From contig CH464491.1 in NCBI GenBank assembly GCA_000002445.1, positions 4,704,001-4,768,000 on the forward strand: 64,000 bases of DNA, in the 5' to 3' direction. Positions 26,601 to 38,600 of this stretch are shown here, one piece after another; position 1 is the first letter of the stretch, and each line of letters begins with the position of its first letter. This stretch comes from Trypanosoma brucei (Eukaryota). Made by a program: the position numbers.

Positions 26601-29600
26601 GAAAATATCGAGGCTGAAAACAAGAATGTAAAATCAGGTGAAAAAGCTGTTTGTGGATGGATTGACAACAAATGAAAAGATTACAGTATTCTCGTAAATA
26701 AGAATGTTGCTCTGAGTATGGCTTATTTTTTTGTGAGTTTGATAGAAATTTATAATTCCAAGGAGTTTTCTCAATAATATGAAATTTATGAAAAAATGAT
26801 ATTATGAAATAATTTGCTATAATTTAACACTTTTTGATTAAAATTTTCAAATTAGTAAAATGTTTATAAGAGTGGCATATGGGTGTAAAGTGTAGAGTGA
26901 TAAAATATTAAAAATGAGTGATATTCTAATATGTTATTTTAATAGTAATAGTAAGAGAGTATTTTAAGCGTATTTACTAACATTATGAGGAAAGTGCATT
27001 TAAGTATCGAATGGAGAGACGAAATCAAAGCTTTGGAAAAAGTTTCCATGATGCGATGAGGGTAAGTGAATGAGTGGTTCAGTGATTACGACATGGAGAA
27101 GGCACAAAGAATACTATTTAAGAAAAGAAAAAAGGGGATATAGATAAAATATGCGCAGTTTAAAACTCGAAAGTGGCGATATAGCATTGATAGCACACAA
27201 AGAGATGAGGAAAAGGCAGGGAAAACGAAAAGTGCGAAGGCTAAATGAAGTCGCTTCGTATTCTGTGTAAGAAACAACAGAAGAGTTAAAATCTGCAATG
27301 AATATATGGAGTACAACACACAGTGCAACATCCAGAAACGAAGTAAATATTACATAGGAGAAGGTTGTGCTCTAAAATGTACTAAAAAATGGATAGATTT
27401 TTCTACGGAGGTGATTGTAAAAACAACAATAGAAGTGGTTCAGAAAGCCATGCTTATGGGAAAAACTTGGCGATAGCGGATAATCGGGGTAGTCATCAAG
27501 CGAGGGTGAAAAACTTATACCATATCAGAATTAATCATTGTAACTAGATAGGTTCATTCCAATAAAAATGCATAGACACCAATTTTCAATGCAGAAAGGC
27601 AACTGAATACATATATTGTGCGGAACTATGTGTGACTTAAGGGAACGTTTTAAACAAAACCATAGGTACGAGGTCAAAAATAAGTTGCATACACTGAGAA
27701 TACACACATCATCACATGCATCATAAGTATCTCAAGGAATTACTCGTATAAGTAAACAACTAAGTGGCGCAACTGACATCTTCTATTAAGCTTCCAATGT
27801 TTTTTCTCATAGCACTTTCAAATGTTAAACGTACATTAAGGCATGATGTTTATTATCTTTAAATCTTCACTATTACCGTTGATTTAACATTAAGTGTGTT
27901 TAAGCTCAATATTTCTTTAAGCGGACACAACGGGAAATGTAACAGAGAATGATCCTAAGAAGCCCAGAGTGTTTGTGGTTGTAGTTCAAGCTCATGCAAC
28001 TCAAGGATGATGTAGGCTAATATTGAGTGCCAAACTAGGTAATGTTAAATTATTACAATTGTAATGGAAGGTTTGTATAGAAATGTTCAGAGACCTATGT
28101 GAGTTATGTAATATTTATAAAAACAGAATCCAAGTGATGAGGATGTTGTAGTTCATTTAGGTGGATCCGATGCTATTGCTTCTGACAGAGATAATTATGA
28201 AAAGACAGTGGAGTACTTTATACAGAATACTGCTAAAAGTAAAGAAAAATTTAGTGGAGAAGATATTTTAAAAGAGAAGAAAATTCCCCCTATTTTATTC
28301 ATGACAACATCAGAGTGTTATGCACGGAAGTTAGACTTAACTTTTAACTAAGAACACAGGGATCATATGGAGAGATGCTACTGGTTTTTTAGTAATGGAG
28401 ACAGAAAAGAAGAGGATAAAAAGCTACCGCATTTACTAAAATCACCTCCTAGTGGAAACCCCTATCTTAGTGGTGGTGGTTTAATAGCTAGGGTTTGGGT
28501 ATTTGATAAGTTTGATAAATAGTTTAATGGGATGCTTGAAATGAGTGATGAATGATTTTCAGGGCAGAATATTTACAAACCTCTACTAATATGAAGTGCA
28601 GTTCAGGAAGAAGCTGTTGGAGATCGATTTTTTTTTTTTGAGGAGAGGAATGATTGGTCTGGATTATGAAGAGCGATTTTTCTCTATTCCGCCCAGTGAT
28701 GTAGTTGGAACGGCACCATTTATTCATTTTCCAGTTCAACAAGTTGCATGGGAGGAGGAAGCGAATTAGGTTGTGAAAATATTACTTGGAATAATTAGTT
28801 GAAAATGAGGAAATTTGGTACGAAAAACTTTGGAAGAATTAAAGCTTATACGATAAATGGTAAAAAATGGGTCGTTGAATATGAGAATATTTGTGGCAAT
28901 GTGTTTAAAGAATTGGATTTGTTTAAAGCTAAGAAACTGTAACCATCAGCCCCATGAAGAAGTTAAACAATAAGCAGAAGCTCGTAGCGTGGCCAGAAGA
29001 GTCCCCACGCCAGGAAACAAAAACTAAACCTCAACTCGTTTTTTACAAGGTAATTTACAAGACAATGTTAGTTTTTTTATCCGACTCGTCTTTGCGGCAA
29101 TAATGGCGACCAAGGGTAGATCGAGTACAACAAACGAAAATCGTCCAGACTTTCTAGCACTTTGTCAAGTTTATACGGCGGCACGAGCCTTGAGGAAAAC
29201 AGTATATTCTAGCATTACCGTGGATTTCGACATCGCTGACATTCTTAACTACAATATTTCAGTTGCAACGGAGGAGTGGGGGAATCTGTTCGGGAAATCA
29301 GGGGATAAAAAAGGCTGGAATGCATACAAGAAAAGCCAAGGAGCAAAACTTGGCGACGTAAACTGGGAAAGGGAATGGGATTCTTGGGAAGCGCAAAAAG
29401 AAGCAGCCAAAGATTCAGAGCAAGGTTTGAACAAGGAACGTAATATCCAAAAAAACGAGGCGGGAAAAGAGTAATTAAGGAGTTACGCCAAAGACACAGC
29501 CTTCGAAGCGCTAAAAACCAAACAAGCAGCCGAAACGTTTCCTCAGACTCCGAAAGGCGCCGCGCAAGCGGCACTGAAAATGAAAAAATATATGCGGCGC

Positions 29601-35600: not shown

Positions 35601-38600
35601 TTATGGTGTTAGTGCCTTTTAGCGCTAGAGTGCCCGATTTTAGCGTCGCGTCGACGGAGCTTTCCTGTTTTCAAAGTTCGGTTGTGTCAGGTGCGGCATC
35701 CGCGGTTATCGTGCAGCTACGGCTCGATGCTATTGCTTCGTTATTGCCTGTATTTGGCGAGGCGGCAGTTAATCCGGCTGCTGCTGGTTTTAGATTTTTT
35801 TTGCTAGCAGCGCCTGCAGCTGCCCTTTCCGGCGCCTTAGTGTTGTAGTGTTGGTTCGCAGCCGCTGACCGTACTCCTTAATTGATTGTATCTGCCATGC
35901 AAGTCGAACTGTTGTGAGTGCTGCTATCGCGTAATGTTGATTTTTAACTTTATCTTCTTTTAATTTACATGCCGCGAATGTATGGAATTTTATATTGCGA
36001 TGTAATTTAGTTCCCCTATTCTTCGCTGTTCTTATTGTGGTTTTGTAATTTCCTACTACATGCTCCAGATATTTATGCTCATGGCACGGCTATGTTATAG
36101 TTGCCTGGTCGTCGCTGCCAGTCACTTTGGTATGAGCTATTGCTACAGCTGCCACTACTTGAAGATACTTCTTTGTGTCTAGCAGCGTCATTTGTGCTTT
36201 TTCAAGCGGGGTTTCTTGGCTAACGACTTAAAAGAATGAGGAATAAAAGCTTGTGGGCGATTGGCTTGTTTTCACCAATGTTTATTACGTGAAACAGCTC
36301 GGTGATCTTCACTACAAAAACTGAAGATAGTTGAGACTGACATTTATCTTTCAATTTTAAATTCATGGGCATTTATAATACTCTAACGGATACAACATTT
36401 CACCTATAAAATTAGCAATTATTCTCCACATTCTCAACGCTCCTACTGCCAACAGAAGTCATTAAAAGCCTCTACATATCGCAAACATCACTTTTTTCTT
36501 GGCCAATGCTGCTAATGCGCGGCAAATGCCGCCGTCCATATGTGCTACCAATAGCATCACATCATCACAACTTGCTAGTGGCATTATTCCTATTTTGGAT
36601 CTCCTTCATAACCTGGATTATTTTACAGCGCCTGCTCCTTAGCGGCGGTAATCTTTGCGTAAATTATAATTTTATGCGCTCTTTATCGTTGCTTGATGCG
36701 CTGGGTTAACTGTTAACTAGCAAAAAGTCTTATGTGGTTTGTACTCTTCCTGATTGCAGTTCATCTTTCGTCACTATGTTAGTATGTAATTAGTGAAGTT
36801 GCCGAGCCGAGTCCCTCTACATAATGAATCGCATCCGATGAGCCACACATACGTCATTTTAAACAGTTTATCCGCGTCTATTCTTTTTAAATTTCCACGG
36901 TCATCCTTAGTAATTATAGTTTCAAAATGTTTGTTCAAACAATATCATATGTTTTCATAAAATATTGACCGATATGAATATGTCTTATGAAAAAGACACT
37001 TTAAATTTTTTCACGCTTATCCAATACCATCATCTCGCTCCTGTTTGTTCCTCTTGACAGTTGGACATTAGAATTCACCATCAGTTTACTAAACAGCCCC
37101 CAGCATCATATCAGCAATAACGTCTAAACATTTTTAAGTGAAACGTGGGTATCATTGGCCGCTTCGTTATTTTTTTGAGTGTGTGCTTCGCTATCTCACA
37201 TTCTTCCATGATATTCTGTATTTTTCTACTACTGTTTTTACTGCTTTTATCACTGCTTACGACGTAGTGTCTTTATTTGGTCTGTACACTAAACTCGGTG
37301 CTTCCTCTATTGTTCTTCATCATATCCTTTTGTATGATGATTTCCACAGATATACTTGCGTTTCTGTATGAAACTGTGCATTCTCCATCTCCTTCTTTTT
37401 ACTTTCTCTTTCTCTGTTTTTTTCCATTTCCTCGAAAAATATTCCTCATGTTTTCCAACTCCAACTTACTCGCCTATTCCCATTGTTTCTTTTCCATTGT
37501 TTTGAGTGAATCAAAATTGGCTCTCCATTTTATCATCACCGCCGCACTTATTATAATATTACTATTACTTTTATAATATCCTTAATAGTCGTTACTATTA
37601 CTATATTACTATTAAGAGTCACCCAATCAACATAAAGTAAACAAAATAAACCAAATTAGAATAGTGCTCGTTTTTCACAAACTATCATCTTATTGTTTTA
37701 CACCAATAGGTTAATATCATACAGATTTGTTAAATAATTCTCAATTCGTAATATTTTCACCAATTTGTACATTTCCATGAAAAAGTCATATAATTTATCA
37801 TATTTTAGTATTTTTAGAAAATTCCCCGAAAATATCAATTTTCATAAACTTCATGAGATTGAGCCTAAATTTTTACAAGCCCAATTACAGAATCAAAAAT
37901 GCAAGCAAAAGAGGAGCCTTGTTGATGATAAAAGAATTGCTTTCTGTGGTGTTTGTAGTTTTACCATCTTTCGCTGTTTCTTTTTCTGCTTCTTCAGCTA
38001 CTTTTTTAGCGGCTTCTGGGTTTAAGGTACACTTTGACCCCTCGGGATTTGTAGAAACAAAGTGACACCCTGATGTGTTTTTACAACCAGTTTCATTTTT
38101 TCGCCTACGTCATTGCAAATTTTATCTGGAGTTTTTGAGGATTTTTTGTTGATTTGCTTTTCTAATTGAGAAATTGTATCCTTTAACTTTTCCTGGTTCT
38201 TCTGTCGGTAATGGAGAAGGATGCTTATCAGATCAGGGAGTGCACTTACCTGGTCCAGCTTGATTGTTGGTGGAGTGCTGCTAGTAGGGTTGTATATGTC
38301 GGTTTGTGAGAATTTCTTTCCGTATTCAGGTTTTAATTCTTCGCCCTGTTTGTAGGCGGAAGCTATCGTTTGTGCAAGGTTGGGTACCTCCGTTAACTTG
38401 TCTGGTGTTTGGCCGAGGACGTAGATTCTATAGTATTTGGACATGTCTTCGTCGCTGCTAAGTGAAGTTGGGGTAGGTTCCGTGAATGCCGGTGGTGTTT
38501 GCTTCGCTTGCAGATATGCTGCGTGTGCACGCTGTAGAGCTTTGCTGACCGCTGCCCCCGGTTTGGGATTTTTTAGGTCAACTGTATTTAAGTCAGCTGC

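What the first reader, a model, noticed from the sequence alone, without database searches (positions are those of the whole stretch)
29103..37620. Convergent strand switch of two VSG arrays exactly at a degenerate ingi element
All VSGs left of 30,178 are on the + strand and all VSGs right of 37,885 are on the - strand. The last + VSG (29103-30177) is cut mid N-domain at the ingi 3' poly(A) end. The other ingi flank (35327-37545) is non-VSG spacer belonging to the - array, not the missing half of that VSG. The 12 nt flanking the two ingi ends (AGAACTAATACC and TCAGTTTGTATT, read on the - strand) do not form a target-site duplication. The junction therefore looks like ingi-mediated recombination or inversion, not a simple insertion.
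Basis: partly seen in the sequence, partly recalled or inferred. Interest (0 to 1): 0.7.

Follow-up and report, generated by a model that had tools for sequence, protein, structure and literature searches.

The report
Duplication-less ingi joining two truncated VSGs
In a Trypanosoma brucei surface-antigen gene array, an inactivated ingi retrotransposon without the usual 12-bp insertion duplication sits between two different tail-less antigen pseudogenes that point at each other, which looks like a known kind of retrotransposon-mediated rearrangement and not a new mechanism.

Summary
The window is T. brucei brucei TREU927, on a 5.26-Mb chromosome, in a silent VSG array.

**Confirmed**
- Every VSG and 70-bp-repeat signal left of 30.2 kb is on the + strand. 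Every one right of 35.3 kb is on the - strand.
- A full-length but dead ingi lies between them on the - strand (35326 to 30183). It has one reading frame, five in-frame stops and a 105-bp deletion.
- Its 12-nt flanks match at 1 of 12 positions, so there is no target-site duplication.

**Corrected**
- The left VSG (29066-30182, +) is not cut mid N-domain. Its B-type N-domain is complete (Pfam positions 13-351 of 352) and it lacks only the C-terminal domain.
- The right flank is not spacer. 36191 to about 35458 (-) is the 5' part of a second VSG pseudogene. It has its own 70-bp repeat and runs into the ingi 5' end.

**Reading**
Two unrelated 3'-truncated VSGs converge on one ingi without a duplication. 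This best fits homologous recombination between two ingi copies (deletion, inversion or exchange). Insertion-coupled rearrangement and an assembly join are the rivals. I could not fetch orthologous DNA to decide. ingi/RIME recombination is already documented, so interest is modest.

The parts
26930..26990 (+). Single degenerate 70-bp-repeat-like tract that opens the cassette of the last + VSG
   Evidence: Sequence read (TAATAGTAATAGTAAGAGAG...GTATTTACTAACATTATGAG). Weak blastn-short hit to the window's best 70-bp repeat.
29066..30182 (+). VSG-Y: B-type VSG pseudogene. Complete N-terminal domain with at least one frameshift and one in-frame stop. C-terminal domain and 3'UTR are missing.
   Evidence: Pfam VSG_B 13-351 of 352, E=1.9e-32. 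74% and 72% identical to 433- and 447-aa T. brucei VSGs that extend about 75-85 aa further. Frames shown.
30171..30182 (-). 12 nt immediately 3' of the ingi A-run (TCAGTTTGTATT). It is VSG-Y sequence and would be the duplication of the element that supplied the 3' end.
30183..35326 (-). Full-length Tbingi, 5144 bp including an A6 tail. Not coding-competent: 5 in-frame stops and a 105-bp in-frame deletion near element nt 1340.
   Evidence: 5' signature and 3' end. Exo_endo_phos_2, RVT_1 and RNase_H hits. Single-frame analysis. 95% identity end to end with the ingi at L003:5513-10764.
35250..35326 (-). The conserved first ~77 nt of the ingi (the 5' signature, 'Pr77 hallmark')
   Evidence: Starts CCCTGGCGATGCCGGCCACCTCAACGTGGTGCCAGGG. 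Role as hallmark, promoter and ribozyme per PMC4748587 and PMC4035085. No Rfam model matched.
35327..35338 (-). 12 nt immediately 5' of the ingi (AAGAACTAATAC). It would be the duplication of the element that supplied the 5' end.
35327..36191 (-). VSG-X: 5' part of a second VSG pseudogene (signal peptide plus roughly 240-290 aa of N-domain, with frameshifts and stops), running into the ingi 5' end. Similarity is solid down to about 35458. The last ~130 nt are only plausibly VSG.
   Evidence: 70% identity, E=5e-93, to UniRef A0A1V0FZR2 'Variant surface glycoprotein'. tblastn of full-length VSG relatives maps aa ~5-242 to 36173-35458. The relatives carry VSG GPI signals. The tail is not better than shuffles. 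No Pfam hit.
37545..37620 (-). Single degenerate 70-bp-repeat-like tract that opens the VSG-X cassette, 1.35 kb upstream of its ATG
   Evidence: Sequence read. 14-nt exact hit to the window's 70-bp repeat.
37885..39338 (-). Next VSG of the - array (A-type, frameshifted near its 3' end)
Evidence: Pfam Trypan_glycop E=2.9e-46 for ORF 38022-39338.
58494..58814 (-). Separate ingi remnant: the first 321 nt only, wedged between VSG 60280-58815 and the tail of another B-type VSG (58493 to about 57990). A second retroposon-associated junction in the same array.
   Evidence: 95% identity to 35326-35006. Sequence. Both junctions are present in T. equiperdum OVI contigs.

Best explanation
The ingi at 30183-35326 is a recombinant element. 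One ingi had inserted, in sense orientation, into a - strand VSG (VSG-X). Another had inserted, in antisense orientation, at the N/C-domain boundary of a + strand VSG (VSG-Y). Homologous recombination between the two roughly 5-kb copies left a single element. It carries the 5' flank of the first copy and the 3' flank of the second. If both copies lay in direct orientation on one chromosome, everything between them was deleted: the 3' halves of both VSGs and the original array boundary. If they were inverted, the segment between them flipped. If they were on different subtelomeres, arms were exchanged. Shown here: the anatomy, the missing duplication, and that the flanks are two different truncated VSGs. 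Inferred: the recombination itself and its geometry.
For: No 12-bp duplication (1 of 12 matches), whereas Tbingi/TbRIME insertions characteristically have a 12-bp one (PMC3820030). The single control ingi I could fetch retains 8 of 12 at similar divergence. Both ends are exact element termini, nt 1 of the 5' signature and an A-tail, as expected if each junction was made by a normal insertion. The two flanks are unrelated VSGs of different types, both lacking their 3' parts and both reading into the element. Each sits in a normal cassette behind its own 70-bp repeat. The missing halves and the two 12-mers are nowhere else in the window. The literature states that ingi and RIME recombine and account for several rearrangements between T. 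brucei genomes (PMC2854126). A second ingi-associated junction in the same array (58.5-58.8 kb) is shared with T. equiperdum OVI, so such junctions are real and heritable here.
Against: There is no direct sign that the element is a mosaic. Identity to the one available reference ingi is uniform at 92-98% along its length, but one reference gives little power. No reciprocal product or ancestral, unrecombined allele could be examined. The last ~130 nt next to the ingi 5' end are not demonstrably VSG. The normality of a duplication rests on one control plus the literature. The sequence comes from a Sanger-era assembly of a repetitive, heterozygous region (PMC6784898).
Confidence: 0.55

Rival explanations
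1. Insertion-coupled rearrangement. A single retrotransposition event primed at a nick in VSG-Y. The 5' end of the new copy was ligated to a distant break in VSG-X. This deleted or rearranged the target DNA during insertion, as described for mammalian L1 (my own knowledge, not checked here).
For: It gives the same end product: exact element termini, an A-tail, no duplication and unrelated flanks. The element shows no visible mosaic structure.
Against: I found no report of this for ingi in the papers I could search. It requires a second break inside another VSG kilobases or more away. ingi-ingi recombination is the documented route (PMC2854126).
Confidence: 0.15
2. Assembly artefact. Two different genomic ingi copies, or two haplotypes, were collapsed in the TREU927 reference, falsely joining a + array to a - array.
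For: The join lies inside a 5-kb dispersed repeat. VSG subtelomeres are repetitive and heterozygous, and this hindered complete assemblies (PMC6784898). The short-read T. equiperdum OVI contigs break inside ingi sequence. I could retrieve no independent sequence spanning 29-38 kb.
Against: This copy is distinctive. It differs by about 5% from the two other ingi sequences available, and it has five private-looking stops and a 105-bp deletion. Sanger reads should have been placeable. Identity to the reference ingi shows no discontinuity. The neighbouring array is reproduced at 99.8-100% identity in an independent genome.
Confidence: 0.15
3. Ordinary insertion whose target-site duplication has decayed, into a pre-existing tail-to-tail junction of two truncated VSGs.
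For: The element is old enough to have collected five stops. Vestigial duplications exist, such as 8 of 12 in the control.
Against: A 1-of-12 match is chance level and far below what about 5% divergence would leave. It also needs the ingi to have landed exactly on an already existing breakpoint between two broken genes.
Confidence: 0.03

Closest known systems
Tbingi (ingi4 subclade) non-LTR retrotransposon of T. brucei
   Same: The ~77-nt 5' signature, a single long frame with APE-type endonuclease, RT and RNase H, an A-tail, a length of about 5.2 kb, and 95% identity to an ingi of T. equiperdum.
   Different: Lacks the family's characteristic 12-bp target-site duplication. Inactivated by five stops and a 105-bp deletion.
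ingi/RIME-mediated rearrangements reported between T. b. brucei and T. b. gambiense (PMC2854126)
   Same: A dispersed retroposon sits at the breakpoint of a structural change in a repetitive region.
   Different: Those cases were defined by comparing two genomes. Here the rearrangement is inferred from one sequence, from the missing duplication and mismatched flanks. It also coincides with a change of array polarity inside a VSG array.
Retroposon accumulation at strand-switch regions in trypanosomatids (PMC4748587 abstract)
   Same: A retroposon lies exactly where gene orientation changes.
   Different: That statement concerns polycistronic unit boundaries in general. Here the switch lies within a silent VSG array, and both abutting genes are broken by the element.
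Recombination between dispersed LINE/SINE copies (L1-L1, Alu-Alu) causing deletions and inversions in mammals (own knowledge)
   Same: The diagnostic signature matches: a complete-looking element with no duplication and with flanks from two different loci.
   Different: Different element family and host. No polymorphic or ancestral allele is available here to prove it.

Membership tests
Tbingi retrotransposon | Conserved ~77-79-nt 5' signature starting CCCTGGCG | tested here: met
   Exact 37-nt start at 35326-35290. 95% identity to L003 ingi from nt 1. Signature described in PMC3820030 and PMC4748587.
Tbingi retrotransposon | One long ORF with endonuclease, reverse transcriptase and RNase H | tested here: met
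   Pfam Exo_endo_phos_2 1.8e-11, RVT_1 6.3e-45 and RNase_H 3.6e-10. All are in one frame, interrupted by 5 stops.
Tbingi retrotransposon | 3' A-rich tail | tested here: met
   A6 at 30183-30188 read on the - strand. The control ingi has A9.
Tbingi retrotransposon | 12-bp target-site duplication | tested here: not met
   AAGAACTAATAC vs TCAGTTTGTATT, 1 of 12, with no better register. 12-bp rule from PMC3820030. The control retains 8 of 12.
Tbingi retrotransposon | Conserved target motif preceding the 5' duplication (endonuclease recognition site) | not testable with these tools
   The consensus is in Bringaud et al. 2004, which is not held. PMC3820030 shows it only in a figure. Three 5' flanks are too few to derive it.
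Silent VSG cassette (VSG-Y, 29066-30182) | VSG N-terminal domain | tested here: met
   Pfam VSG_B 13-351 of 352. 72-74% identity to named VSGs.
Silent VSG cassette (VSG-Y and VSG-X) | C-terminal domain, GPI signal and 3'UTR 16-mer | tested here: not met
   Both genes end at the ingi. No 16-mer lies between 26830 and 45575 at up to 2 mismatches. The relatives extend further.
Silent VSG cassette (VSG-X, 36191-35327) | VSG N-terminal domain | tested here: inconclusive
   No Pfam VSG hit for it or its relatives. It is 70% identical to a protein named VSG and homologous to 450-500-aa proteins with VSG-type GPI signals.
Silent VSG cassette | 70-bp repeat upstream | tested here: met
   Single degenerate copies at 26930-26990 (+) and 37545-37620 (-). 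The matches are weak.
Recombinant (chimeric) retroposon from inter-element recombination | Complete element without duplication whose two flanks come from different loci | tested here: met
Recombinant (chimeric) retroposon from inter-element recombination | Mosaic sequence, or existence of parental or reciprocal junctions | tested here: inconclusive
   No discontinuity against one reference ingi. No reciprocal junction in the window. The rest of the chromosome and other strains were not retrievable.

The most novel reading that the evidence does not exclude
Recombination between two oppositely oriented ingi copies inverted a block of at least 29 kb of the VSG array, everything from 35.3 kb to beyond the window end. 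The convergent polarity switch was then created by retroposons and not merely marked by one. ingi elements would be agents that set the orientation and domain structure of the silent antigen archive. The reciprocal junction, a + strand ingi flanked by the two missing VSG 3' halves, should lie further along the chromosome.
Probability: 0.2. Interest if true: 0.45.

Novelty: new member of a known kind. Interest (0 to 1): 0.27.

Why it matters
VSG arrays are the raw material of trypanosome antigenic variation, and how they are reshuffled, lost and re-oriented is only partly understood. A clean example in which one retroposon joins two broken VSGs at a polarity switch shows that ingi copies act as recombination substrates inside the archive and not only in the chromosome core. 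It also gives a simple sequence signature for counting such events in long-read assemblies: a full element, no 12-bp duplication, and mismatched flanks. It does not reveal a new mechanism. It is also a reminder that reference subtelomeres need checking at every ingi.

Tried and rejected
- **Missing half of VSG-Y beyond 35326 in + orientation.** Rejected. That DNA is a - strand VSG fragment.
- **VSG tail at 58493 to about 57990 as the missing 3' half of VSG-Y or VSG-X.** Rejected. It starts about 50 aa before the end of a B-type N-domain, which VSG-Y already has. VSG-X is of the other type.
- **Reciprocal junction or second copy of either 12-mer in the window.** None.
- **Pfam on VSG-X, its closest relative and nine distant relatives.** No hit. 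Identity was established by homology instead.
- **Extending VSG-X homology to the junction itself.** Collinear weak matches were no better than shuffled controls.
- **Fetching independent DNA across the junction.** ORFs spanning or near it are not on record. The TREU927 chromosome itself is not retrievable.
- **The ingi target-site consensus.** The paper is not held and a text search found nothing.
- **Mosaic test of the ingi.** Only one reference copy was available, so it was uninformative. L004 had neither ingi terminus.
- **Rfam scan of 29-38 kb for the HDV-like ribozyme.** No match.
- **Large inverted duplication between the two arrays.** None. Only short conserved VSG 3' ends match.
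Full report
**Origin**

Four intact VSG ORFs of the window are exact matches to T. brucei brucei TREU927 proteins EAN80653-EAN80656 (XP_829765-8), on a 5,261,801-bp record. The size suggests chromosome 11, which is my inference. The accessions are consecutive, so the reference has no protein entry for any ORF between 14.3 and 49.8 kb. Everything there, including the region in question, is probably treated as pseudogene or repeat.

**Strand switch**

- AT skew is positive from 2 to 30 kb and negative from 30 to 64 kb.
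- tblastn with ten VSG ORFs of the window finds VSG-like blocks only on the + strand up to 30211 and only on the - strand from 38025 onward.
- 70-bp-repeat-like tracts are overwhelmingly + at 1.7, 5.0, 7.8, 11.3, 14.6, 17.3, 20.6, 23.5 and 27.0 kb. They are overwhelmingly - at 37.55, 41.4, 45.4, 49.5, 55.5, 57.6 and 62.0 kb. The exceptions are short opposite-strand hits in the near-palindromic TAA/ATT tracts.
- The convergent switch is real and lies between 30.2 and 35.3 kb.

**The ingi**

- On the - strand the element starts at 35326 with CCCTGGCGATGCCGGCCACCTCAACGTGGTGCCAGGG and ends at 30183 with ...GGCACGAAGAAAATTCCAAAAAA.
- It is 5144 bp long. Endonuclease, RT and RNase H domains are found in three ORFs.
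- All three ORFs are in one frame. The frame is open from nt 3 to about nt 4635 except for five in-frame stops, and there are no frameshifts.
- It is 95% identical end to end to a 5252-bp ingi of T. equiperdum IVM-t1 (L003:5513-10764). Relative to that copy it lacks 105 bp near nt 1340.
- 'Degenerate ingi' is therefore correct, but the element is complete at both ends.

**No target-site duplication**

The 12 nt upstream are AAGAACTAATAC and the 12 nt after the A-run are TCAGTTTGTATT. They agree at 1 of 12 positions. A scan of all registers and lengths from 8 to 14 finds only trivial A-rich matches. Elements of the ingi clade, including Tbingi/TbRIME, characteristically have a 12-bp duplication (PMC3820030). 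The one control ingi I could fetch still shows 8 of 12 (ttttccagtgca / ttttactgtgtc) at similar divergence. Decay does not explain the absence here.

**Left flank, VSG-Y**

The stitched reading of 29103-30182 matches Pfam VSG_B over profile positions 13-351 of 352. Its closest relatives are a 433-aa and a 447-aa T. brucei VSG, at 74% and 72% identity. They align from MATKG... to ...KAYATKLKREYK and then continue for about 75-85 residues, the C-terminal domain. They also begin 13 residues earlier (MLVFFIRLVFAAI). The window encodes MLVFL... from 29066 in another frame, so the gene starts near 29066. The gene carries an in-frame stop and at least one frameshift. The cut is at the N-domain/C-domain boundary, not mid N-domain.

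**Right flank, VSG-X**

- The - strand reads, through frameshifts and stops, MTLLDTKKYLQVVAAVAIAHTKVTGSDDQATIT.PCHEHKYLEHV....
- This conceptual protein is 70% identical over 82% of its length (E=5e-93) to UniRef A0A1V0FZR2, 'Variant surface glycoprotein', T. brucei.
- Neither it nor that protein hits a Pfam VSG model.
- An exhaustive HMMER search with the relative finds 39 representatives at E<=0.001 (the query itself plus 38 others), mostly 450-500 aa, aligned over their first ~240 residues.
- Three of the four relatives I read end in typical VSG GPI-signal tails such as ...SNSFLMKKAPLWLAVLLL (recognising these as VSG tails is my own knowledge).
- These full-length proteins map by tblastn to 36173-35458 on the - strand.
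- The last ~130 nt before the ingi give collinear but weak matches that are no better than shuffled controls.
- A degenerate 70-bp repeat lies 1.35 kb upstream at 37620-37545.
- The - array therefore starts directly at, or within 130 nt of, the ingi 5' end, with a VSG cut at roughly residue 240-290 of its N-domain.

**Anatomy, read on the + strand**

[70-bp repeat] - VSG-Y 5' part (+) | A-tail end of ingi ... 5' end of ingi | VSG-X 5' part (-) - [70-bp repeat] - next - strand VSG.

One element, complete at both termini and without a duplication, bridges two unrelated genes. Both genes have lost their 3' parts and both read into it. The missing parts are not in the window. The only other ingi-like DNA is a 321-nt 5' fragment at 58494-58814. 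The VSG tail next to that fragment fits neither gene.

**Mechanism**

The simplest account is two earlier, normal insertions, one in each VSG, followed by homologous recombination between the two ~5-kb copies.

- With both copies on the - strand of one chromosome, this deletes the interval between them and yields exactly the observed structure.
- With inverted copies, it inverts the interval and also yields the observed junction. The reciprocal junction would then lie beyond 64 kb.
- Exchange between subtelomeres gives the same local picture.

ingi and RIME are stated to recombine and to underlie several rearrangements between T. brucei genomes (PMC2854126). Retroposons are said to accumulate at strand-switch regions (PMC4748587).

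The recombination step is inferred, not shown. Identity to the single reference ingi is even along the element, which neither supports nor excludes a mosaic.

**Rivals**

- **Insertion-coupled rearrangement.** A single retrotransposition whose 5' end was joined to a distant break gives the same product. I rate it lower because I found no precedent for ingi in the searchable papers.
- **False join in the reference.** This is a serious possibility, because the region is repetitive and heterozygous (PMC6784898) and I could not obtain independent spanning sequence. The copy is distinctive, with about 5% divergence, five stops and a 105-bp deletion, which argues that Sanger reads could be placed correctly.
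- **Decayed duplication in a pre-existing junction.** This is very unlikely.

**Context from a second genome**

T. equiperdum OVI contigs L001 and L002 are 99.8-100% identical to window 48.4-58.5 kb and to 58.78-64.0 kb. L002 carries about 5.5 kb of further sequence upstream. Both contigs end inside the 321-nt ingi fragment. Both junctions of that fragment are therefore shared between the two genomes. This shows that retroposon-associated VSG junctions in this array are genuine and inherited. It does not address the 30-35 kb junction.

**Verdict**

Correcting them strengthens the case.
- The interpretation 'not a simple insertion' is supported. 'Recombination or inversion' is the best but unproven reading.
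- The phenomenon belongs to a known kind, a dispersed-repeat-mediated rearrangement in a trypanosome subtelomere, so novelty and interest are modest.

Noticed in passing
window 57990-60280 (- strand): A second retroposon-associated junction. VSG 60280-58815 (annotated as intact, stop at 58922) is followed by only the first 321 nt of an ingi (58814-58494). That fragment is joined non-homologously to the last ~50 aa of a B-type N-domain plus the C-terminal domain of another VSG (58493 to about 57990). Both junctions are also present in T. equiperdum OVI contigs.
   Followed up: partly
window 1-1000: The left edge has the opposite AT skew (-0.20) to the + array that begins at the 70-bp repeat near 1.7 kb. 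The - strand encodes a stretch with a CCHC zinc knuckle (CFRCGKLWHYSTLC). It has no Pfam hit. It may be another retroelement remnant or a second polarity change.
   Followed up: partly
L001 and L002 (T. equiperdum OVI, GCA_001457755.2) vs window 48.4-64 kb: The silent VSG array is 99.8-100% identical between T. b. brucei TREU927 and T. equiperdum OVI over more than 15 kb, pseudogenes and spacers included. This is very high conservation for a region regarded as fast-evolving.
   Followed up: partly
window 35458-36191; proteins P0005, P0008-P0017: A set of T. brucei VSGs of 450-500 aa (typical GPI signals seen in three of the four sequences read) gets no hit from any Pfam VSG model at E<=0.001, not even for the C-terminal domain.
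   Followed up: partly
window about 33990 (element nt ~1340 of the ingi): A 105-bp in-frame deletion relative to the T. equiperdum IVM-t1 ingi. It lies close to two of the five in-frame stops.
   Followed up: partly
L003:5513-10764 (T. equiperdum IVM-t1, CM010675.1 2.17 Mb): A 5252-bp ingi in another VSG array, downstream of a 587-aa B-type VSG, with a vestigial 8-of-12 target-site duplication. Used as the control.
   Followed up: partly
window 39923-39993 and 5049-5168: Perfect microsatellites in the spacers between VSG cassettes: (GT)35 and (TAATAG)20.
   Followed up: no
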